Shown piece after piece: positions 38,863 to 63,945 of a DNA stretch of 64,000 bases. Numbering within the stretch: the first letter of the stretch is position 1; each line of letters begins with the position of its first letter. A model generated the notes under the pieces. That model was not told where the DNA came from. It was given only the letters and a program-made list of their open reading frames with translations, and searched no databases. Location of the stretch: positions 692-64,691 of IMG/VR virus record IMGVR_UViG_3300046782_000291; one strand, given 5' to 3'. Made by a program: the position numbers and the translations under genes. The stretch comes from a virus (Duplodnaviria > Caudoviricetes).

Positions 38863-38946
38863 CTACAACGTCGCCAGCACGCAGAGCATCGCGAGGATGC
38901 CGGCGATGACGAAGCCGATGATGAGGTCCTTCGTCCAGTTCTTCAC
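38863..38946 (-). CDS. 27-aa TM peptide
   Basis: GAGGAGG RBS, GTGA overlap; MKNWTKDLIIGFVIAGILAMLCVLATL. Confidence 0.45.
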   Translation of the reverse strand: MKNWTKDLIIGFVIAGILAMLCVLATL

Positions 38947-39152
38947 TTGCCCTCCTCGGTGGCCTCGCGCACGTCGATGACCTTCACCATCGAGTCGTTC
39001 TGCGGGTGATTCATCGCCATCTGCACGCGGCGCTCAACTTGCTTCGGCGTTTCGGAGCCGTCCGACTCGATCACGAGGACCCGAGCCTTGCCTGACCGTC
39101 TTCGTGACGTGGTCGTCATCGGAACAACGGTCACCAGATACTTCTTCATCAC
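38943..39152 (-). CDS. Hypothetical protein
   Basis: GGAGG RBS. Confidence 0.55.
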   Translation of the reverse strand: MMKKYLVTVVPMTTTSRRRSGKARVLVIESDGSETPKQVERRVQMAMNHPQNDSMVKVIDVREATEEGK

Positions 39153-39161
39153 ATCCTCCAG

Positions 39162-39527
39162 TCACATGCCGTAAGTTCGATACGGGAACGCGGGCTTCAC
39201 GAAGGAGATGCGCTGCGTGTAGTCCAACGCTTCCCACCGTGCGAAGAGATTGGCGCGGTCTTCCGTCGTCCAGCTGCGCGTGCGCTCCTTGAAAATCTCC
39301 TCTGGTCTCCCGGCGTCCAAGCAGATCTCAATCACCAGCGAGCGGGAGACCGTGACGCTGTTTACGCTCTTGCCCTTCTCCTCTGCGATGCTCGTCAGAA
39401 GGTCATAGGCAACCTCATTCCAGACGTCAGCGACGCAGCCCTGGATGAGCTTGAGTTCCGCCTCGTTGAACTCGATCCACGTGCCGTCCTTCTTGTTCTT
39501 GAACCCTCGCGTTGTCGTTGTCTTCAT
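39162..39527 (-). CDS. Hypothetical protein after HH13
   Basis: ATG 2 nt after ribozyme stem II; SD GAGG inside the ribozyme. Confidence 0.7.
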   Translation of the reverse strand: MKTTTTRGFKNKKDGTWIEFNEAELKLIQGCVADVWNEVAYDLLTSIAEEKGKSVNSVTVSRSLVIEICLDAGRPEEIFKERTRSWTTEDRANLFARWEALDYTQRISFVKPAFPYRTYGM

Positions 39528-39529
39528 AA

Positions 39530-39593
39530 GGCACCTCATCAGGCCGGATGATTCCGGCGACGGACCGCGCGGTGGCGATCCGTTTCGTATGCC
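39530..39593 (-). ncRNA. Type II hammerhead ribozyme HH13
   Basis: GGCAUAC-GAAA-CGGAUCGC/GCGGUCCG-UC^GCCGG-AAUCAU-CCGGC-CUGAUGA-GGUGCC; predicted cut 39559/39558. Confidence 0.92.
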
Positions 39594-39692
39594 CTACTTC
39601 CAGAAGTTCCGGAGGATGTAGCCCCACGTGAACCCTTGCTGCTGGAGCAACCAGAATCGGCGGACTGCGAGTCGCAGGTTGATCCGTCTCAT
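39594..39692 (-). CDS. 32-aa basic/aromatic peptide (not in ORF track)
   Basis: GGAG RBS, ATGA overlap; TAG abuts HH13. Confidence 0.55.
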   Translation of the reverse strand: MRRINLRLAVRRFWLLQQQGFTWGYILRNFWK

Positions 39693-39928
39693 TTGGTCTC
39701 CTTCTTCGGTCCGATCCACGTCAACAGGAAAGAGCCGTCTTGCTTGACCAGCCCTGCGTTGATGAGCGAGCCGATGAGCGCCTCGTAGGTCCGAAGGCTC
39801 ATATGTCCCTGCATCCGAACGTACAGGTGGCCGGAGGGGATGGAGCCGACCTCCTGGATGATGTCCGCAACGGCTTTCACCACCTCTAGCATCGCCGTGA
39901 CTTGCTTCGAGGTGATGCTAGAGTTCAC
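39689..39928 (-). CDS. Small winged-HTH-like hypothetical protein
   Basis: GGAGG RBS; IPSGHLY...L...GLV pattern. Confidence 0.55.
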   Translation of the reverse strand: MNSSITSKQVTAMLEVVKAVADIIQEVGSIPSGHLYVRMQGHMSLRTYEALIGSLINAGLVKQDGSFLLTWIGPKKETK

Positions 39929-40073
39929 TGGACACCTCCGCCCGAATGTCGCGGTGGCGAGCCGGTCTGCGCTGGCCGAGGAACTTCATCATCGCGTCCA
40001 CGTGCTTGTACGGCGACAGGTCCACCGTGCGCGTTGTCTTCTTCGTTGTCTTGGTCGTCTTCTTCGTTTTCAT
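39918..40073 (-). CDS. 51-aa Lys/Thr-rich peptide after HH12 (not in ORF track)
   Basis: MKTKKTTKTTKKTTRTVDLSPYKH...; ATG 3 nt after stem II. Confidence 0.55.
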   Translation of the reverse strand: MKTKKTTKTTKKTTRTVDLSPYKHVDAMMKFLGQRRPARHRDIRAEVSSEL

Positions 40074-40076
40074 CGA

Positions 40077-40140
40077 GGCACCTCATCAGGCCGGTCCATT
40101 CCGGCGACGGATCACCCGGTGGCGGTCCGTTTCGTGTGCC
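40077..40140 (-). ncRNA. Type II hammerhead ribozyme HH12
   Basis: GGCACAC-GAAA-stem III-GUC^GCCGG-AAUGGA-CCGGC-CUGAUGA-GGUGCC; predicted cut 40106/40105. Confidence 0.92.
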
Positions 40141-40670
40141 TACCAACGAGCCCACGTGGGCAGGCGCTGGTAGATGCGTTCGGCAATCTTCTCGTACACG
40201 GTGGCGGTCGTGATCTCACCCTTGAGCCGGAGCCGTTTGGCGGTGGCGATGTTGGCGGCATAGTTCGCCAACTGACCCATGGCCAGCCGCGTTCCACGTC
40301 CACCGTTCGGGAACACGCCACGGACGTTCCGCCCATTCTGGTGGTCCGACCAGAAATCCATGAGCGTGGAGGCGTCCATCGTGTCGAGGTTCGGCACGTT
40401 GGCCTCTGGAACGAAGGCTGGCGTACACTTGTGCTGGTGCATCCGACCAACCGGAAGATGCCGCCCGCAATCGCAGATGGCCATGACCCGGAGACCGGCC
40501 CAGTTGCGCCGCATGCCCGTCTTCGGCGGCAGCGGACGAACGTACACGCGCACGCCGTCGATCACCCTCTCGGGCATCCCTTCGGCGGGCAGCGAGCCTT
40601 GCGTCACTCCGAGGTAGGTGTACATGTCGGTGGCGTTCGCATAGCGATACCGCCCAGTGATCAATTTCAT
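40140..40670 (-). CDS. Hypothetical protein (Cys/His Zn motif) between HH11 and HH12
   Basis: ATG and TAG both abut ribozymes; CDCGR...HQHKC. Confidence 0.7.
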   Translation of the reverse strand: MKLITGRYRYANATDMYTYLGVTQGSLPAEGMPERVIDGVRVYVRPLPPKTGMRRNWAGLRVMAICDCGRHLPVGRMHQHKCTPAFVPEANVPNLDTMDASTLMDFWSDHQNGRNVRGVFPNGGRGTRLAMGQLANYAANIATAKRLRLKGEITTATVYEKIAERIYQRLPTWARW

Positions 40671-40672
40671 AA

Positions 40673-40729
40673 GGCACCTCATCAGGCTGGTCCATTCCAG
40701 CGACGGGCTTGCGCCCGTTTCGTTATGCC
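40673..40729 (-). ncRNA. Type II hammerhead ribozyme HH11
   Basis: Stem I GCUGG/CCAGC (compensatory change); stem III CGGGC-GCAA-GCCCG; predicted cut 40702/40701. Confidence 0.93.
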
Positions 40730-41631
40730 TCGTCATCGCCTGTATGGAAACGAACGACTGCGTTGTCGAATGGCGTTGGAACAACCGTCACGTTCACGAC
40801 CACAGGCCGTTTGCCGAAGGAGAAGGATGGATCGTCCTTGCTCCGTTCGAACGTGGCCGTGATCGTCACCGTGTCGGTCCGGTTGATCTCCGCCTTGGCC
40901 GGGCACGTGAGCCAGACCTTGGCGTTGTTCTCCAGCTTCATGAGCATCTTCGTGACCACGCCAAAGTCAGTGGCCTGTTCCTTCATGCTCAACACGACGC
41001 CCGTGACGGTCACCCGTCCTTCCGGAGCCTCACCTTTGACCTCGGTGGCCTCTACCGCACGCCGTGCAGCGTTCTGGATATCGCGGGCCAGGGACGAAAG
41101 CACGGCAGCAATCTGGCGCTCGCTGAGCGAGCCGTACAGGTTGAGCTTCGCGAGCACGTCCTGCGCAAAGAGGTTCTTGGCGTGGACGGGGTTCTTGAGT
41201 TGTTCGACCGCGTCAGCGACCTCCGGATGTGTCGCGAGGAACGCGGTGCGCAGGTTCCAGATCTTCATCCTCGCGTGCCCGGCTTCCGCCTTGCTCTTCA
41301 GCTGGGCCAGCTTGAACGCCATCTGGTTCGCGAAGCCGAGCCGTTCAGTGCAATCGGCTCCGAAGACGACCACCTCACCGGTGGGCTGGTGACGGACGGC
41401 GGTGATCCACCGGACGTTCCCGTTGCCGCAGTGGACGCAGTGGTGAATCTTTGCGCGCCAGTTCGCGCCGAAGGTTCGCAGCATGTTTTCCTGGAACCAC
41501 TTGACCTCCAGCGCATACTCCTCGCTGGTCTGGCCATAGAACGGCGGACGTTTGTTGTCGAGGTAGTCCACGACTTCGTAGTGCGAGGGTTCGAAGTTCG
41601 TGGGGTTGTGGACGGTAGGCTTCTTGGCCAT
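40723..41631 (-). CDS. Hypothetical protein (Zn finger plus possible OB fold) between HH10 and HH11
   Basis: CVHCG...GADC; C-terminal EGRVTVTGVV..K beta-rich domain. Confidence 0.7.
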   Translation of the reverse strand: MAKKPTVHNPTNFEPSHYEVVDYLDNKRPPFYGQTSEEYALEVKWFQENMLRTFGANWRAKIHHCVHCGNGNVRWITAVRHQPTGEVVVFGADCTERLGFANQMAFKLAQLKSKAEAGHARMKIWNLRTAFLATHPEVADAVEQLKNPVHAKNLFAQDVLAKLNLYGSLSERQIAAVLSSLARDIQNAARRAVEATEVKGEAPEGRVTVTGVVLSMKEQATDFGVVTKMLMKLENNAKVWLTCPAKAEINRTDTVTITATFERSKDDPSFSFGKRPVVVNVTVVPTPFDNAVVRFHTGDDEA

Positions 41632-41633
41632 GG

Positions 41634-41694
41634 GGCACCTCATCAGGCCGGTTGATTCCGGCGACGAGGGTGGTTGGCCCTCGTTTCGTATGCC
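41634..41694 (-). ncRNA. Type II hammerhead ribozyme HH10
   Basis: Full core GAAA...GUC...CUGAUGA; stem III CGAGGG/CCCUCG; predicted cut 41663/41662. Confidence 0.92.
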
Positions 41695-41960
41695 TAGCGT
41701 GTCTTGTTCCGTTCCTCGCAGTAGCCTGCTGCCGCCTCCAGCGAGACGAACGGCTCAGTGTTCACCGCGTCATCGCCGTAGTAGATGTGGTACAGCTTGC
41801 CGAGGAGCCGCACGTGGTAGTGCTTCACCCCTGGCTGGTAGACGCGTGCGGCATCCTCCGCCTCGCCACGGCTGGCGAAGCCTCCAGCGAGGAGACCGTT
41901 GTCATTGTAGATGGCCCAGTGGCGGTCGAGGGTGCGCTGTCGCTGGACGACGATCATCAC
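41694..41960 (-). CDS. Hypothetical protein
   Basis: AGGAGG RBS, GTGA overlap; TAG overlaps HH10. Confidence 0.6.
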   Translation of the reverse strand: MMIVVQRQRTLDRHWAIYNDNGLLAGGFASRGEAEDAARVYQPGVKHYHVRLLGKLYHIYYGDDAVNTEPFVSLEAAAGYCEERNKTR

Positions 41961-42169
41961 AGCACCTCCTTCTCGATGACCGGTTGCTGAGCGAGCCGAT
42001 GCCCGTTCATCCGCGCCAGCGCGGCGTTGACGTTGGAGTAGGCTTCGCTGAGCGTGGCCGTGTCCCAGACGGAGGGAACGGTGACGGCTGCGAGTTTGTC
42101 GAGCCGTCGTGCAGCTGTTCGGAGCATCCGAGCCGCATCGTTGAGCGGGTGGGTCTTGTTCGATTGCAT
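41957..42169 (-). CDS. Hypothetical protein after HH9
   Basis: ATG 2 nt after stem II. Confidence 0.65.
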   Translation of the reverse strand: MQSNKTHPLNDAARMLRTAARRLDKLAAVTVPSVWDTATLSEAYSNVNAALARMNGHRLAQQPVIEKEVL

Positions 42170-42171
42170 AA

Positions 42172-42233
42172 GGCACCTCATCAGGCCGGTCAATTCCGGC
42201 GACGAGGGCTTGCCGCCCTCGTTTCGTTATGCC
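42172..42233 (-). ncRNA. Type II hammerhead ribozyme HH9
   Basis: Full core; upstream UAA lies inside the stem II bulge; predicted cut 42201/42200. Confidence 0.92.
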
Positions 42234-42571
42234 TGATCGGAGAACTGCGTCACGAACGTTGCCCAGGCAATCGTGCGCGCCTGGTCGGCAAGATTCGAGG
42301 TGTGGGAGGTAGACGACTCGGGAGACCGGGCACCGCGCAGCGCCTCGCGCATCGCGTAGGACAGGCAATACGCGGGTCCAGCCTTCGGGTTGTCGTTCAT
42401 GCAGCGGAGTTGGTCGGTCACGTTCAGCATGGCTGAGGCTTTGATCGCCTCGTCACCCCAGCTGAACGCATAGAACGGGTCCTTGCCGAATCGTTCGGAG
42501 AACTTCGCCAATTCACGCTTGGCCATCTCCTCCATCGAGTCGATCCACTTGGTGATTCGTTCGTTGGTCAT
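42227..42571 (-). CDS. Hypothetical protein between HH8 and HH9
   Basis: Start and stop both abut ribozymes. Confidence 0.7.
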   Translation of the reverse strand: MTNERITKWIDSMEEMAKRELAKFSERFGKDPFYAFSWGDEAIKASAMLNVTDQLRCMNDNPKAGPAYCLSYAMREALRGARSPESSTSHTSNLADQARTIAWATFVTQFSDQA

Positions 42572-42575
42572 GATA

Positions 42576-42633
42576 GGTTCCTCGTCAGGCCGGTCCATTC
42601 CGGCGACGGACCACGTGGTCCGTTTCGTGAACC
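42576..42633 (-). ncRNA. Type II hammerhead ribozyme HH8
   Basis: Stem II swapped to GGUUC(A)C/GGAACC (compensatory); core CUGACGA; predicted cut 42605/42604. Confidence 0.93.
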
Positions 42634-42675
42634 CGAACCGGTGGCGAGCCGATGCCCGCCACCGGGCGTGTCGTC

Positions 42676-43107
42676 CTACTTCTTGCCCTTGCCCTTGCCC
42701 GCGACGGGCTTGGCCGGAGCGTCAGCCGCCGGAGCGTCAGCCGCCGGAGCCGCAGCCGCCGGAGCCGCAGCCGCCGGAGCCACCTTGGGCGTGCCCACCG
42801 GCAACGAGGTGGGCGAGGGAACCTCGGTGAACCGGGAGGTCACCGCGCCAACGCTGGCCGACTTGCGCACCCAGCCCTTGGCGATCGCATCGGTCACCAG
42901 GGCATCGAACTTCGCCTTGGCCTTGGTCTGGGCATCCTTCTCGGTGAGGCTGATGGTCGTGCGCGCACCGCTCATCGCCCGCTCACCGGGGCGGATGGCG
43001 CTGATGAAGACGTGGATGCCGGTCTTGCCGGTGCGAGCGCGCACGGACATCTTGACGCCGGTGCTGTGGCTGAAGTTGACGGTCTGCTTGAAGTTGTTGG
43101 TAGCCAT
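42676..43107 (-). CDS. Basic protein with C-terminal APAA repeats and Lys tail (possible nucleic-acid binder)
   Basis: Own AGGAG RBS; 15-bp tandem repeats at about 42712-42781. Confidence 0.7.
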   Translation of the reverse strand: MATNNFKQTVNFSHSTGVKMSVRARTGKTGIHVFISAIRPGERAMSGARTTISLTEKDAQTKAKAKFDALVTDAIAKGWVRKSASVGAVTSRFTEVPSPTSLPVGTPKVAPAAAAPAAAAPAADAPAADAPAKPVAGKGKGKK

Positions 43108-43135
43108 GGTCGTGTCTCTCCTGAGAACTGAATGA

Positions 43136-43195
43136 GGACATCTCATCAGGCCGGTTGATTCCGGCGACGGGCTTCGCAGCCCGTTTCGATTGTCC
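43136..43195 (-). ncRNA. Type II hammerhead ribozyme HH7
   Basis: Stem II swapped to GGACA(A)UC/GAUGUCC (compensatory); predicted cut 43166/43165. Confidence 0.93.
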
Positions 43196-43479
43196 TACCG
43201 CTGTCGGTGGACCACCTCGACCTCGTGGTCCATGAGTTCCAACGTCCGTCCGTCCGTCGTGAGCACCGTCCAGCAATACTCCACGTTGTCCTCGGTCACC
43301 GTCGTGTCGGTGGCGACTCCGGATGCCGTCAGGCTTGGTCCTGCGTAGTCACCATCAATCGTATAGATGGCGGTGTTCAACCCGAGCACGAGCACGACCT
43401 GGCCGATGTCCGCGCTGGAGGGCGGAAGTTCACGTCCATTGTAGCCGTCTCTGTCGTGGGCGACGATCTTGAGTTTCAT
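43195..43479 (-). CDS. Hypothetical protein between HH6 and HH7
   Basis: Start and stop both abut ribozymes. Confidence 0.7.
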   Translation of the reverse strand: MKLKIVAHDRDGYNGRELPPSSADIGQVVLVLGLNTAIYTIDGDYAGPSLTASGVATDTTVTEDNVEYCWTVLTTDGRTLELMDHEVEVVHRQR

Positions 43480-43481
43480 AA

Positions 43482-43542
43482 GGCACCTCATCAGGCCGGT
43501 CCATTCCGGCGACGAGGGCGGCAAGCCCTCGTTTCGTATGCC
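43482..43542 (-). ncRNA. Type II hammerhead ribozyme HH6
   Basis: GGCAUAC-GAAA-CGAGGGC/GCCCUCG-UC^GCCGG-AAUGGA-CCGGC-CUGAUGA-GGUGCC; predicted cut 43511/43510. Confidence 0.93.
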
Positions 43543-43763
43543 TACTTCTCTGGAGCGTGGAACCAGCATCCATCCATATCCTTCTCCGGCTCCGTTGGAC
43601 CGAGGTAGTCCAACAGATCGTACAGCGCATCCTTCTTCGTTCTGCGCCATCCACCACCAACGCTCGCATCGGTCTCCAGATACCACCGCCACCCGTCTGG
43701 GGTCTTGGCGATGATGTACGCACCGAGCCGGTAGAATCCAGCGCCGATCTTCTTGGTCCTCAT
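43542..43763 (-). CDS. Hypothetical protein between HH5 and HH6
   Basis: Start and stop both abut ribozymes. Confidence 0.7.
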   Translation of the reverse strand: MRTKKIGAGFYRLGAYIIAKTPDGWRWYLETDASVGGGWRRTKKDALYDLLDYLGPTEPEKDMDGCWFHAPEK

Positions 43764-43765
43764 TT

Positions 43766-43826
43766 GGCACCTCTTCAGGCCGGTCCATTCCGGCGACGAG
43801 GGCTTGCCACCCTCGTTTCGTATGCC
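43766..43826 (-). ncRNA. Type II hammerhead ribozyme HH5
   Basis: Core CUGAAGA (variable position 7); predicted cut 43795/43794. Confidence 0.92.
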
Positions 43827-44119
43827 TACAGGTTGTCGAGCGTCACGCCGATGCGCGTCATCAGGTCCGTCCAGGTGCTCATGTCCGCACCCTTCTTCGT
43901 CTTGAGCACCTTCAGGTGATCGATGATTTCGTTCTTGTAGTCCGTCACGGCTTCGTCACCGTAGTCTGAAATTGCGTTCTCCATCCCAGCGAGTTCGAAG
44001 CACTCGTGGCAGATGTCGCCGCAACCGGATTGGTCGGCTTCGACGTGTCGCGTCAATCGCGTGCATACGCGGCAGTTGAAGGTTGACGACCCACGGCGGA
44101 AGGTCTTGATCGTTCTCAT
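43826..44119 (-). CDS. Hypothetical Zn-finger protein between HH4 and HH5
   Basis: F.CRVC.R.TR...ICHECFE motif. Confidence 0.7.
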   Translation of the reverse strand: MRTIKTFRRGSSTFNCRVCTRLTRHVEADQSGCGDICHECFELAGMENAISDYGDEAVTDYKNEIIDHLKVLKTKKGADMSTWTDLMTRIGVTLDNL

Positions 44120-44121
44120 TT

Positions 44122-44180
44122 GGCACCTCGTCAGGCCGGTCCATTCCGGCGACGGACCGCAGCGGTCCGTTTCGTATGCC
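44122..44180 (-). ncRNA. Type II hammerhead ribozyme HH4
   Basis: Core CUGACGA; stem III CGGACCG/CGGUCCG; predicted cut 44151/44150. Confidence 0.92.
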
Positions 44181-44372
44181 TTACGCTCGTGAGTGTCCGT
44201 TCCACGTGTCGCCGTCGCAATCTGGGCCCCATACCTGGTGCCACTGGATGCCTTCATCTTCCAGCCAGCTCACGAAACGGAATGCTTCATCCTTCGTGCG
44301 GAACTTGCGTGACTGGATACGGCCAAAGGGCTTCTTGCTGAACTCAACTCTGTAGGGGAAGGGCTTGCTCAT
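44181..44372 (-). CDS. Hypothetical protein between HH3 and HH4
   Basis: Start and stop both abut ribozymes. Confidence 0.65.
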   Translation of the reverse strand: MSKPFPYRVEFSKKPFGRIQSRKFRTKDEAFRFVSWLEDEGIQWHQVWGPDCDGDTWNGHSRA

Positions 44373-44376
44373 CTCG

Positions 44377-44440
44377 GGCACCTCGTCAGGCCGGTCCATT
44401 CCGGCGAACCGGGCCCAAGTGGGCTCGGTTTTCTAATGCC
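44377..44440 (-). ncRNA. Type II hammerhead ribozyme HH3 (variant with UUC triplet)
   Basis: 15.2-16.2 pair changed from C-G to A-U; 5' stem II strand GGCAUUA lacks C11.1; predicted cut 44406/44405. Confidence 0.82.
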
Positions 44441-44652
44441 TACTTCTTGTTGAGCGTGTAACGCGCATAGACCGATGAATTTACTGGCACATCGATCAGG
44501 CCATCTTTGCGCATCCGCCATCCAGTTGGCCCTGATGTCCTGCGCCCGTCGTCAAAAAACAGCGCCGATGAATAACCACCGCCACATGTCGGCAAGTCAC
44601 CAGCGCGCATCCTCCGCAACGCTTCTGCTCGTGAGAGGAATCGAGTCTTCAT
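44440..44652 (-). CDS. Hypothetical protein between HH2 and HH3
   Basis: Start and stop both abut ribozymes. Confidence 0.65.
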   Translation of the reverse strand: MKTRFLSRAEALRRMRAGDLPTCGGGYSSALFFDDGRRTSGPTGWRMRKDGLIDVPVNSSVYARYTLNKK

Positions 44653-44654
44653 TT

Positions 44655-44715
44655 GGCACCTCGTCAGGCCGGTCAATTCCGGCGACGAACCGCAGCGCGG
44701 TCCGTTTCGTATGCC
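44655..44715 (-). ncRNA. Type II hammerhead ribozyme HH2
   Basis: Full core; predicted cut 44684/44683. Confidence 0.92.
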
Positions 44716-44813
44716 TAGCGGTGAACCTCGGAGAGCGCCAGCGCGGCGCCCATCACGAGGGTGGTTGCGAGATCGTAACAGAGAAGGAAGAGAGCGACAA
44801 TCGGAGAATTCAT
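44715..44813 (-). CDS. 32-aa hydrophobic peptide (not in ORF track)
   Basis: GGAGG RBS, ATGA overlap; TAG overlaps HH2. Confidence 0.5.
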   Translation of the reverse strand: MNSPIVALFLLCYDLATTLVMGAALALSEVHR

Positions 44814-44926
44814 CGTGACCTCCGGGCCACCACGCGGTGGGCGTGGACGTTCATGTCGAACGATTCGACTTCTTCACCCTGCAGAACGCACACGGAGACG
44901 AGGAGGAGAGCGAACAAATGCTTCAT
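44810..44926 (-). CDS. 38-aa peptide with signal-like N-terminus after HH1 (not in ORF track)
   Basis: MKHLFALLLVSVCVLQG... Confidence 0.4.
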   Translation of the reverse strand: MKHLFALLLVSVCVLQGEEVESFDMNVHAHRVVARRSR

Positions 44927-44929
44927 TGG

Positions 44930-44991
44930 ATGGAACCATCATCAGGCCAGTTAATTCTGGCGACGGGCTTGTGGCCCGTTTCGTATGCCAT
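44930..44991 (-). ncRNA. Type II hammerhead ribozyme HH1 (weak stem II)
   Basis: Stem I GCCAG/CUGGC (compensatory); intact GAAA, GUC and CUGAUGA; stem II imperfect; predicted cut 44962/44961. Confidence 0.8.
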
Positions 44992-45355
44992 GTCGTTGCT
45001 GGAATCCAACCAGCGGCCCAGCGGGCTGCAAGAGCACGACGTTGCGAGAGCACGCCACCACCCGGTCGATTGGGCGGTGGCGGCGGGTCGGTTTTGGTCT
45101 TCGGGGTTTGTCTTCGGGGTTCCTCGGAGAGAGTCGCCTGGGCCTGGGCTGAACGTGCTCCCTAGACTCTCTCCGTCTTACTTCGTGACCGCGTCCATCT
45201 CGACGTTCGGGGGTGCTGACCTCGTCTCTCGACGATTCATCCCGGCGCATCGCGCTGGTCGTTTCCGTTCTGGCGCCTTTGGCTCCGGTCTTCTGGACAG
45301 TAAGGGCAACCCGTTCCCGGTCACGGTCCGCTTAACACGACAGCGAACTCCTCCA

Positions 45356-63463: not shown

Positions 63464-63670
63464 TCACTCCTCCTTCTTGATATCCAGCCGTCCCAGGGCG
63501 GTCTCGGAAATCTCAATATGTACACGCAGGTTCGCCGGCAGTCCATTGAGGATCTGTTCGACCTCCCACAACTGCCGCATCTGGGAAATCGTCAGCGACT
63601 CCGAGCACTCCGCCTCGAACCGCATCGGACGGCGACGACCACGCTGTTGGATCGTAAGGGCCAGTTTCAT
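63464..63670 (-). CDS. Hypothetical protein
   Basis: GAGG RBS, ATGA overlap. Confidence 0.5.
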   Translation of the reverse strand: MKLALTIQQRGRRRPMRFEAECSESLTISQMRQLWEVEQILNGLPANLRVHIEISETALGRLDIKKEE

Positions 63671-63945
63671 TTCCCACCTCGGTTCTCTGACAGGTCCGCG
63701 AGGGCGAGAAGTTCCTGGTGACGCGTTTCCTGGCGTTGCATCAGTCGCTTCATCCGTTCCTGGATCATTACCTCGGCCATATCGTAGGCCAGCTCAGCGA
63801 TGATCGACGGGAGTGGACCACTGAGGTTCTGCACACCTTCCTCCCCATCCAGGAGAAGGGCATGCATCGCGGTCCGCGCAAACGTGTCGCGGAGCGTTTC
63901 AGTGTAGGTGGGAGGGAGGGCGCGTGTGTAGACTTCAGACGACAT
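63667..63945 (-). CDS. Conserved phage small protein
   Basis: TLRD.FA..AM..LL...A..AY.MA..M..ER motif. Confidence 0.65.
   Translation of the reverse strand: MSSEVYTRALPPTYTETLRDTFARTAMHALLLDGEEGVQNLSGPLPSIIAELAYDMAEVMIQERMKRLMQRQETRHQELLALADLSENRGGK

What the first reader, a model, noticed from the sequence alone, without database searches (positions are those of the whole stretch)
39525..44717. Ribozymes are fused to translation signals: stop codon at one stem II strand, Shine-Dalgarno in the other
Seen: in 11 of 13 copies the upstream stop codon overlaps, abuts or lies inside the 5' strand of stem II (UAG-GCAUAC; GGCA-UAA-C in HH9 and HH11). In 11 copies the downstream ATG is 2-4 nt after stem II, and the only SD is the GAGG formed by the core and stem II 3' strand. 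HH7 is the informative exception: its stem II change removes GAGG, and its gene has a separate AGGAG with ATG 28 nt away. Inference: the folded, uncleaved ribozyme hides the RBS, and cleavage or an upstream terminating ribosome frees it. This would be a natural ribozyme-gated translation switch, with competition between translation and cleavage.
Basis: partly seen in the sequence, partly recalled or inferred. Interest (0 to 1): 0.82.

Follow-up and report, generated by a model that had tools for sequence, protein, structure and literature searches.

The report
Phage hammerhead ribozymes built into gene junctions
A soil phage separates its small early genes with 13 self-cutting hammerhead RNAs, and one helix of each RNA is made from the stop codon of the gene before it and the ribosome-binding site of the gene after it, which gives a testable role for ribozymes whose function in phages is still unknown.

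Summary
The window is a 64.7-kb phage contig. Its minus strand carries 13 type II hammerheads (39529-44990), and all three helices are supported by covariation. In 11 of 13 copies the upstream stop codon lies in or against the 5' strand of stem II. In 11 of 13 the downstream ATG is 2-4 nt past stem II, and the only Shine-Dalgarno is GAGGUG (GAGGAA in HH8). That motif is core G8-A9 plus stem II positions 10.1-10.4. HH7 is an exception with its own AGGAG, and its ortholog junctions in two related phages also have a long spacer.

The layout recurs in other viral contigs with different stem II sequences. G10.2 stays G while its pairing partner toggles between C and U. Phages with a 68%-identical ortholog have no ribozymes; they have one sigma70-like promoter per small gene instead.

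My reading is that constitutive self-cleavage cuts one long transcript into single-gene mRNAs with a standard leader, and that freeing the SD is a built-in consequence. A regulated switch is not shown. Secondary-structure energetics predict no consistent unmasking, and no RNA data exist. Clustered phage hammerheads are known. I did not find the fusion to translation signals in the papers I searched. It is a new variant of a known kind.

The parts
44931..44990 (-). HH1, type II hammerhead, first of the array. Predicted cleavage after C at 44962. Stem II is degenerate, with no adjacent stop and no GAGG.
   Evidence: R1 63.0 bits. Core and stems. Cleavage site and stem energies. Stem II duplex -0.3 kcal/mol.
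44654..44716 (-). HH2. Cleavage after 44684. UAG of g1b (44717-44715) overlaps stem II. SD is GAGGUG. ATG at 44652.
44376..44441 (-). HH3. Cleavage after 44406. Position 11.1 is A (G.A next to the core). UAG at 44442-44440. ATG at 44372.
44121..44181 (-). HH4. Cleavage after 44151. UAA at 44183-44181 abuts stem II. ATG at 44119.
43765..43827 (-). HH5 (core CUGAAGA). Cleavage after 43795. UAG at 43828-43826. ATG at 43763.
43481..43543 (-). HH6. Cleavage after 43511. UAG at 43544-43542. ATG at 43479.
43136..43195 (-). HH7, the exception. Stem II is GGACAAUC/GAUGUCC, compensated in cis. Cleavage after 43166. UAG at 43197-43195 overlaps stem II. The downstream gene g7 has its own AGGAG and its ATG at 43107.
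   Evidence: Ortholog junctions in L006 and L005 also have a long spacer.
42575..42634 (-). HH8. Stem II is GGUUCAC/GGAACC, compensated in cis. Cleavage after 42605. No adjacent stop. SD is GAGGAA. ATG at 42571.
42171..42234 (-). HH9. Cleavage after 42201. UAA at 42229-42227 lies inside the stem II 5' strand (GGCA-UAA-C). ATG at 42169.
41633..41695 (-). HH10. Cleavage after 41663. UAG of g9b at 41696-41694. ATG at 41631 (g10).
   Evidence: The start is confirmed by orthologs aligned from residue 1.
40672..40730 (-). HH11. Stem I is GCUGG/CCAGC, compensated. Cleavage after 40702. UAA at 40725-40723 lies inside stem II. ATG at 40670.
40076..40141 (-). HH12. Cleavage after 40106. UAG at 40142-40140. 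ATG at 40073.
39529..39594 (-). HH13. Cleavage after 39559. UAG of g12c at 39596-39594. ATG at 39527 (g13).
   Evidence: The g13 ortholog in L011 also follows a ribozyme directly.
38943..44926 (-). 18 small genes punctuated by the ribozymes. Coordinates are start to stop on the minus strand: g1a 44926-44810, g1b 44813-44715, g2 44652-44440, g3 44372-44181, g4 44119-43826, g5 43763-43542, g6 43479-43195, g7 43107-42676, g8 42571-42227, g9a 42169-41957, g9b 41957-41694, g10 41631-40723, g11 40670-40140, g12a 40073-39918, g12b 39928-39689, g12c 39692-39594, g13 39527-39162, g14 39149-38943. Genes not preceded by a ribozyme (g1b, g9b, g12b, g12c, g14) have their own GGAGG-type SD.
   Evidence: ORFs and SD matches. 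GC3. No Pfam family for the 10 tested, apart from one weak sub-threshold hit. Homologs of g6, g7, g10, g13 and g14 in other phage contigs.
42636..42676 (-). GC-rich inverted repeat between the g7 stop and HH8. It explains why HH8 has no adjacent stop.
   Evidence: Read from the sequence. Not listed as a terminator on the minus strand.

Best explanation
Thirteen type II hammerhead self-cleaving ribozymes punctuate one long minus-strand transcript of small phage genes of unknown function.

Each ribozyme fills the whole space between two genes, and its open helix (stem II) is made from their translation signals. The 5' strand begins at or contains the upstream stop codon. Core nucleotides G8-A9 plus stem II positions 10.1-10.4 spell GAGGUG, the Shine-Dalgarno of the next gene. 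The AUG sits 2-4 nt beyond the helix.

Self-cleavage after C17 has two inferred results:
- The upstream cistron keeps its stop codon and ends in the GC-rich stem III hairpin with a 2',3'-cyclic phosphate.
- The downstream cistron begins with a 5'-OH and the stem I hairpin, followed by a nearly identical short leader that carries the SD, now detached from the strand that paired with it.

The array therefore turns an operon into single-gene mRNAs with a standard, context-insulated leader. This is a natural counterpart of engineered ribozyme insulators, and it stands where related phages have one promoter per gene. Freeing the SD follows from the topology. I take it to be constitutive, not a regulated switch.

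Shown here: the sequence anatomy, helix covariation, recurrence in other phages, and promoters instead of ribozymes in relatives. Inferred: cleavage activity, a single transcript, and the effects on stability and translation.
For: All 13 copies have CNGANGA, GAAA, the A15.1-U16.1 pair and C17. In the window copies 93.9% of cells are paired, 11 of 19 pairs change on both sides, and 0 of 500 shuffles reach this. Over 60 copies from 13 sources 94.9% are paired, and 5 of 6 stem II pairs change on both sides.

Junction counts are 11 of 13 for stops and 11 of 13 for starts, against 11.3% and 6.9% at random positions.

The layout recurs. By the script, a start codon lies at most 14 nt after the core in 31 of 49 scored non-window elements (30 after one correction from homology): L005 7/7, L006 8/9, L010 9/9, L011 3/3, L016 3/3, L014 1/1. 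Their 3' strands differ (GGUUCC, GGGUUCA, GACUCCA, GGAAGGA). By eye there are 7 more in L025, L027 and L030. These phages share a helicase only 52-57% identical to the window's.

At the pair of columns 6-139 the 3' base (G10.2) is G in all 51 paired cells, while its partner is C in 28 and U in 23. In L010 the whole UGA stop pairs with UCA at the far end of stem II.

Genes inside the cluster that lack a ribozyme carry GGAGGT, AAGGAGGTG, GGAGGTG, AAGGAG or GGAGG, so this phage uses strong SDs.

The cluster shows no excess of promoter-like sites (1 found, 1.3 expected) or terminator-like sites (6 found, 6.1 expected).

Orthologs of g10 (68% identical, aligned from residue 1) in L018, L019 and L020 have no ribozyme hit. 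Those loci hold 7, 7 and 6 TTGACA-N16-18-NANA(A/C)T sites, all on the gene strand. The window, L005, L006 and L010 hold none.

The hairpins left at the new ends are stable: stem III -9.4 to -15.2 kcal/mol and stem I -6.6 to -9.5 kcal/mol.

Perreault et al. 2011 (PMC3088659, passages read) showed cleavage of clustered prophage hammerheads in vitro and proposed processing into single-gene mRNAs. Engineered analogues exist: an SD placed in an extended hammerhead stem, with accessibility set by cleavage (PMC7445771, passages), and RiboJ, which normalises the 5'-UTR (PMC7536230, passages).
Against: There is no experimental or RNA evidence for cleavage, transcript structure or translation of this phage.

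All Rfam RF02276 matches are below the gathering score (best 33 against 37 bits).

HH1 and HH3 lack a Watson-Crick 10.1-11.1 pair. Perreault et al. used that as a criterion for rejecting candidates, so these two may be slow or inactive.

The loop I to 3'-tail pseudoknot that accelerates most known type II hammerheads is not detectable, so activity at cellular Mg2+ is uncertain.

Secondary-structure energetics predict no consistent gain in RBS accessibility on cleavage. The median difference is 0.6 kcal/mol (range -3.8 to +3.8), with losses of 0.9 or more in 3 of the 11 embedded-SD copies and 0.0 in one more.

My collection patterns required GAGG, and the model was built from window copies, so the sample of relatives leans towards this layout. 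The pattern did not require it, and GAGG followed the core in all 12 matches printed.

A second layout, with the stop overlapping stem II but a separate SD 17-45 nt downstream, is common (L007, L008, L009, L013, L017). An embedded SD is therefore not required for whatever the ribozymes do.
Confidence: 0.55

Rival explanations
1. This is a true translation-cleavage switch. The folded uncut ribozyme blocks initiation. A ribosome terminating on the 5' strand of stem II, or a 30S subunit bound to G8-A9-GGUG, blocks ribozyme folding. Cleavage and translation then compete and set the expression of each gene.
For: The SD includes catalytic-core nucleotides and a stem II strand, and the stop codon sits in the other strand. 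In relatives some upstream frames end in the UAG of CUAGAAAC, which includes core G12 (L010, L011, L016, L005), so the terminating ribosome must unwind all of stem II. G10.2 is fixed beyond what pairing requires. Engineered constructs of this logic work in E. coli (PMC7445771).
Against: The elements show no sensor domain. Predicted unmasking energies are small and inconsistent. Both routes, cleavage and upstream translation, free the SD, so the 'off' state would be short-lived. The separate-SD layout in other phages keeps the stop overlap without an embedded SD.
Confidence: 0.2
2. The overlap is compaction only. The ribozymes serve another purpose, for example setting transcript ends for stability or marking boundaries of exchangeable gene cassettes. 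Stop, SD and start overlap them only because a densely packed phage leaves no spare intergenic bases and the core already contains GAUGAG.
For: Genes in the cluster that lack a ribozyme overlap or abut each other (ATGA at g1a/g1b and g12b/g12c). The hammerhead core supplies GA(U)GAG for free. The stop overlap is also seen where the SD is separate. Homologs of g6, g7, g13 and g14 occur in other ribozyme-bearing phages in other arrangements.
Against: Where the start abuts the ribozyme, an SD is always kept, by several different sequence solutions: GAGGUG, GAGGGU, AGGAGG through N7=G, and GGAAGGA. G10.2 is invariant while its partner toggles. The spacing from G10.2 to the AUG, 5-8 nt in the window copies, falls in what I recall as the optimal range. 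All this points to selection on translation. Compaction and function do not exclude each other.
Confidence: 0.15
3. The released units circularise. The 5'-OH and 2',3'-cyclic phosphate ends of a unit are brought together by pairing the 3' strand of one ribozyme with the 5' strand of the next. They are then ligated by ribozyme reversal or RtcB into small circular mRNAs.
For: In 8 of 12 units the two ends pair as well in trans (-7.5 to -9.9 kcal/mol) as in cis, because the strands are the same. The end chemistry is the substrate of RtcB-type ligases (recalled).
Against: Where stem II varies (HH7, HH8) the compensation is within one ribozyme (cis -6.2 and -7.7 kcal/mol). The three units around them pair poorly in trans (-1.5 to -2.6). 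Perreault et al. looked for circular or spliced products of clustered hammerheads and found none (PMC3088659).
Confidence: 0.06

Closest known systems
Clustered type II hammerhead ribozymes of prophages (Perreault et al. 2011, PMC3088659; Rfam RF02276)
   Same: Same catalytic core and permutation (stems I and III closed, stem II open). Several copies flank single genes or short blocks of phage genes. Processing of a long transcript was already proposed, and cleavage was shown in vitro for three arrays.
   Different: Here stem II is long (6-8 bp with a bulged A) rather than 1-3 bp. The loop I to 3'-tail pseudoknot is not detectable. Scores fall below the Rfam cut-off. Stem II is built from the stop codon and the SD. 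The main text of that paper does not contain 'translation', 'ribosome binding' or 'stop codon'.
Engineered hammerhead riboswitches with the SD masked in a ribozyme stem (described in PMC7445771)
   Same: The SD is one strand of a hammerhead helix, and cleavage separates it from its masking strand and allows initiation.
   Different: Those are type I ribozymes with the SD in an extended stem I, coupled to an aptamer. Here the ribozymes are natural type II with the SD partly inside the catalytic core and in stem II, have no aptamer, and also hold the upstream stop codon.
RiboJ ribozyme insulators (described in PMC7536230)
   Same: A hammerhead cuts off the upstream RNA so that each gene gets the same 5' leader, with a hairpin before the RBS.
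   Different: RiboJ is synthetic, is derived from a satellite-RNA ribozyme, and places the RBS downstream of the ribozyme. Here the RBS is inside the ribozyme, and 13 copies work in series in a natural operon.
RNase III processing sites between early genes of phage T7 (recalled, not checked here)
   Same: Hairpin-like elements between cistrons of a polycistronic phage transcript are cut to give single mRNAs with protective terminal hairpins. For some genes this alters translation.
   Different: T7 depends on a host enzyme. Here the RNA would cut itself, independently of the host.
[quoted passage not shown]
   Same: Viral self-cleaving ribozymes sit just upstream of start codons and are tied to translation (abstract and passages).
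   Different: Those are eukaryotic RNA viruses with type I ribozymes and IRES-like logic, with no SD. The paper set DNA bacteriophage hits aside as already described.

Membership tests
Hammerhead ribozyme, type II | Conserved core C3-U4-G5-A6-N7-G8-A9 and G12-A13-A14 | tested here: met
   13 of 13 copies have CNGANGA (N7 is U in 8, C in 4, A in 1) and GAAA.
Hammerhead ribozyme, type II | A15.1-U16.1 pair followed by a cleavage-site nucleotide H17 (not G) | tested here: met
   The pair of columns 13-36 is A-U in 13 of 13. Position 17 is C in 13 of 13.
Hammerhead ribozyme, type II | Three helices around the core, supported by covariation | tested here: met
   Window copies: 93.9% paired, 11 pairs with changes on both sides, 0 of 500 shuffles as high. 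60 copies: 94.9% paired, 16 of 19 pairs with changes on both sides (this alignment was fitted to the model).
Hammerhead ribozyme, type II | Permutation: stems I and III closed by loops, stem II open | tested here: met
   The order is 5' strand II, GAAA, hairpin III, C17, hairpin I, CNGANGA, 3' strand II in all 13 copies.
Hammerhead ribozyme, type II | Watson-Crick pair 10.1-11.1 next to the core | tested here: inconclusive
   The pair of columns 9-61 is C-G in 11 of 13; HH1 and HH3 are unpaired. In relatives A at 11.1 is frequent (18 of 57 cells not paired), so this lineage may tolerate it.
Hammerhead ribozyme, type II | Score at or above the Rfam RF02276 gathering cut-off (37 bits) | tested here: not met
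   The best score is 33 bits. At most 6 of the 13 copies are reported at all (5, 6), and none at the gathering threshold. The model expects a short stem II and a 3' tail.
Hammerhead ribozyme, type II | Pseudoknot between loop I and the tail after stem II (in most known type II, not all) | tested here: not met
   The best complementarity is 2-4 nt. It is reached by 136-500 of 500 shuffled tails in every copy.
Hammerhead ribozyme, type II | Self-cleavage activity | not testable with these tools
   No RNA run holds the stretch.
Cleavage-dependent RBS unmasking (as in engineered hammerhead riboswitches) | The SD is base-paired in a ribozyme helix whose strands end up on different cleavage products | tested here: met
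   GGUG of GAGGUG is stem II positions 10.1-10.4. Cleavage after C17 lies between the two strands.
Cleavage-dependent RBS unmasking (as in engineered hammerhead riboswitches) | The RBS is more accessible in the product than in the precursor | tested here: inconclusive
   The median opening cost is 7.9 kcal/mol in the precursor and 7.2 in the product, with differences from -3.8 to +3.8. Unpaired probabilities are mixed. The model ignores tertiary structure.
Cleavage-dependent RBS unmasking (as in engineered hammerhead riboswitches) | Expression depends on ribozyme activity | not testable with these tools
   This needs reporters with active and dead ribozymes.

The most novel reading that the evidence does not exclude
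Stem II is a two-way interlock between ribosome and ribozyme. A ribosome finishing the upstream gene, or a 30S subunit sitting on G8-A9-GGUG, keeps the hammerhead from folding, while an idle junction folds and cuts. The phage would then use self-cleaving RNAs as sensors of translation that decide, junction by junction, whether neighbouring genes stay coupled on one mRNA or are severed. That would be a general function for the unexplained ribozyme arrays of phages.
Probability: 0.2. Interest if true: 0.85.

Novelty: new variant of a known kind. Interest (0 to 1): 0.6.

Why it matters
A 2019 review still lists the function of bacterial and phage hammerheads as unresolved (PMC6765202, passages). 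This array gives a concrete and testable link. The ribozyme helix is made of the stop codon and the ribosome-binding site. The layout is conserved across phages whose helicases are only 52-57% identical. Related phages place a promoter where this phage places a ribozyme. If cleavage proves necessary for translation or for mRNA stability, the array would be a natural counterpart of the ribozyme insulators and RBS-masking ribozyme switches built by synthetic biology. It would also supply compact parts (about 63 nt) that carry a stop, a processing site and an RBS in one unit.

Tried and rejected
- Rfam at the gathering threshold gave no match in the window. Only sub-threshold RF02276 hits appeared.
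- blastn of 39000-45200 against GenBank phages gave no match.
- The first pattern scan of viral contigs also returned L001 and L002, which have no model hit. I treated them as chance or partial matches.
- The genome-contig scan gave one hit on a 3.8-kb contig of a Chloroflexota MAG. This is too weak to name a host.
- RF02276 over 151 genomes of that phylum gave 1 sub-threshold match, so I could not test generality on Rfam-type type II hammerheads.
- Sequencing runs: no RNA holder was listed.
- Four DNA runs laid on the stretch showed no other letters in the ribozymes, so there is no population covariation to use.
- The pseudoknot search was no better than shuffles.
- SD accessibility by pair probabilities and by ensemble energies showed no consistent unmasking.
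- The weak model hit at 63582-63676 (13.6 bits) was rejected. Its fold has a z-score of 0.05, and its GAAAC lies in the start of an ORF preceded by its own SD.
- The script mis-called two starts. For HH8 it chose a 30-aa GTG frame; ATG 42571 opens the 114-aa frame. For L005 2671 it chose a TTG; homology to g7 places the start about 30 nt downstream.
- Five of the 67 elements were not scored by that script, because long stem III inserts or a contig edge hid GAAA. I read them by eye only.
- Of the 13 hits, I left L026 out, because it is the same record as L004 and L005.
- Literature searches for a natural SD-in-hammerhead arrangement were (0 papers); none of the listed titles or passages describes it. 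Supplementary alignments of PMC3088659 were closed and could already show the flanks.

Full report
**What the window is.** It is positions 692-64691 of a 64.7-kb IMG/VR virus record. PHROG matches give portal, head and tail proteins on the plus strand and helicases, a DNA polymerase and a photolyase on the minus strand. The stretch has no match in GenBank phages. It is held by soil and rhizosphere DNA runs.

**The elements.** A core regex and then a covariance model find 13 copies on the minus strand between 39529 and 44990, and nothing else credible in the window. The 13.6-bit hit at 63582-63676 was rejected.

- Read 5' to 3' as RNA, each copy is: 5' strand of stem II (mostly GGCAUAC), GAAA, hairpin III, C17, hairpin I (mostly GCCGG-AAUGGA-CCGGC), CNGANGA, 3' strand of stem II (mostly GGUGCC). 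This is the type II permutation of the hammerhead.
- All 13 copies have the core, the A15.1-U16.1 pair and C at position 17.
- The three helices are 93.9% paired, with 11 of 19 pairs changed on both sides (0 of 500 shuffles as high).
- Stem II pairs as G-C, G-C, C-G, A-U, U.G, a bulged A, then C-G. It is compensated in HH7 (GGACAAUC/GAUGUCC) and HH8 (GGUUCAC/GGAACC).
- Rfam's Hammerhead_II model reports at most six of the copies, all below its cut-off (best 33 against 37 bits). That model expects a very short stem II and a 3' tail that pairs with loop I. No such pseudoknot is detectable here.

- In 11 of 13 copies a stop codon of a coding-like frame lies in or against the 5' strand of stem II. 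It reads UAG-GCAUAC or UAA-GGCAUAC in nine copies and GGCA-UAA-C in HH9 and HH11. HH1 and HH8 are the exceptions.
- In 11 of 13 the ATG is 8-10 nt after CNGANGA, i.e. 2-4 nt after the helix. The only anti-SD match upstream is GAGGUG (GAGGAA in HH8), which is G8, A9 and positions 10.1-10.4.
- HH7 lacks GAGG. Its gene g7 has AGGAG and an ATG 35 nt after the core.
- The five genes in the cluster that are not preceded by a ribozyme each have a strong SD of their own.
- The frames look coding. GC3 is 0.70-0.88 in 17 of 18 genes, against 0.70-0.78 in four long reference genes; g2 is the low one at 0.58.
- The ribozyme-adjacent stops are 8 UAG, 3 UAA and 0 UGA, while 55 other ORFs use 11 TAG, 13 TAA and 31 TGA. 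The stop therefore belongs to the repeated module.

**Beyond paralogous copies.** Pattern scans of viral contigs and the model brought in further arrays.

- By the script, 31 of 49 scored non-window elements have a start codon at most 14 nt after the core, with the SD starting inside the core. One call is corrected by homology, leaving 30. The breakdown is L005 7/7 (6/7 after that correction), L006 8/9, L010 9/9, L011 3/3, L016 3/3 and L014 1/1. Seven more in L025, L027 and L030 were read by eye.
- Their stem II sequences differ from the window's. In L010 the whole UGA stop pairs with UCA at the outer end of the helix. In several relatives the upstream frame ends in the UAG of CUAGAAAC, which includes core G12.
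- A second layout keeps the stop overlap but has a separate GGAGG or AAGGAG 17-45 nt downstream (L007, L008, L009, L013, L017). Window HH7 and L006 6416 belong to it. Both precede orthologs of g7, so the exception is tied to the gene.
- Over 62 scored elements, 50 have the stop and 38 have an ATG 7-14 nt after the core, against 11.3% and 6.9% of 39,000 random positions.
- In the 60-copy alignment, five of six stem II pairs change on both sides. At the pair that holds G10.2, the 3' base is G in all 51 paired cells while its partner is C or U. This is what selection for an SD on top of pairing would give.
- Caveats: three of my patterns required GAGG and the model comes from the window. The pattern did not require GAGG, and GAGG followed the core in all 12 matches printed.

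**What stands in its place elsewhere.** g10 (302 aa) has 68%-identical orthologs in L018, L019 and L020, aligned from residue 1 (MAKKPTVHNP against MAHTPTVHNP and MAKTPTVHNP). This confirms ATG 41631. Those loci have no ribozyme hit. They carry 7, 7 and 6 TTGACA-N16-18-NANA(A/C)T sites, all on the gene strand, spaced about 290 to 3,000 nt apart. The window, L005, L006 and L010 have none, and the cluster has no excess of promoter-like or terminator-like sites. Two architectures therefore serve the same kind of gene cluster: a promoter per gene, or a ribozyme per gene.

**Mechanism.** Cleavage after C17 would leave each upstream cistron with its stop codon and a 3' stem III hairpin (-9.4 to -15.2 kcal/mol). 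It would leave each downstream cistron with a 5' stem I hairpin (-6.6 to -9.5 kcal/mol) and the same short leader. After the cut the two products are held together by stem II alone, about -8 kcal/mol as a duplex. From that energy I infer that they separate.

This fits the processing idea of Perreault et al. (PMC3088659). It also resembles RiboJ-type insulation (PMC7536230) and engineered SD masking in a hammerhead stem (PMC7445771).

I do not see support for a regulated switch. There is no extra domain. Ensemble energies give similar costs of opening the RBS before and after cleavage (medians 7.9 and 7.2 kcal/mol), and unpaired probabilities are mixed. These models ignore tertiary structure, so they weaken the gating claim without disproving it.

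Circularisation of the units is possible for 8 of 12 units. Compensation, however, follows the cis rule.

**Novelty.** Arrays of hammerheads flanking single phage genes are known. The main text of the 2011 paper does not mention translation, ribosome binding or stop codons. A 2019 review calls the bacterial function unresolved and does not mention Shine-Dalgarno. Five full-text searches found no description of a natural SD-in-hammerhead arrangement. A 2026 paper links hammerheads to translation initiation in eukaryotic RNA viruses only. I rate this a new variant of a known kind, with interest 0.6.

Noticed in passing
L018 3086-9889, L019 2713-7108, L020 2716-5930: Phages with a 68%-identical ortholog of g10 carry 6-7 near-identical TTGACAAA-N-(T/G)NNA(C/T)ACT-type promoter-like repeats on the gene strand, often just after a GC-rich hairpin. 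There is about one per small gene, and these loci have no hammerheads.
   Followed up: partly
L017 8249-10869: In this contig the ribozymes (stem II GGACACA/CGUGUCC and variants, without GG at 10.1-10.2) are followed by a conserved spacer of about 20 nt resembling CAUCAGCACUGACGAGUCC. The spacer can form a small hairpin before a separate AGGAG and the ATG.
   Followed up: no
L024 10174-10219, L029 4775-4820, L031 7827-7872: Three records share an identical hammerhead-like element in which GAAAC follows the CUGACGAGG side, so stem II is closed. This is a different permutation from the window's, and its own GAGGAG and ATG lie downstream.
   Followed up: no
window 42718-42800: The Ala/Pro-rich repeat at the C-terminal end of g7 (GCCGCCGGAGC-type repeats) attracts many unrelated metagenome contigs: depth 19.6-38.9 against 0-12 in the other bins. 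It shows a 5-nt insertion in one run and a 42-nt go-back joint in two.
   Followed up: no
window 44810-44926 and 44715-44813: The two ORFs between HH1 and HH2 (38 and 32 aa) are hydrophobic peptides that overlap by ATGA. The first has no recognisable SD.
   Followed up: no
window 39100-45100: Short-read assemblies of four soil runs break into pieces of 185-1415 nt across this stretch, with no piece spanning it. The repeated ribozymes are a likely cause. Such arrays may be under-assembled in metagenomes.
   Followed up: no
L011 4375-4430, 6384-6433, 9637-9706; L006 1885-1997, 7925-8021: Some relatives have very long stem III inserts (up to about 60 nt). In L011 these share a UGGCACCA-like motif in the stem III loop region.
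   Followed up: no
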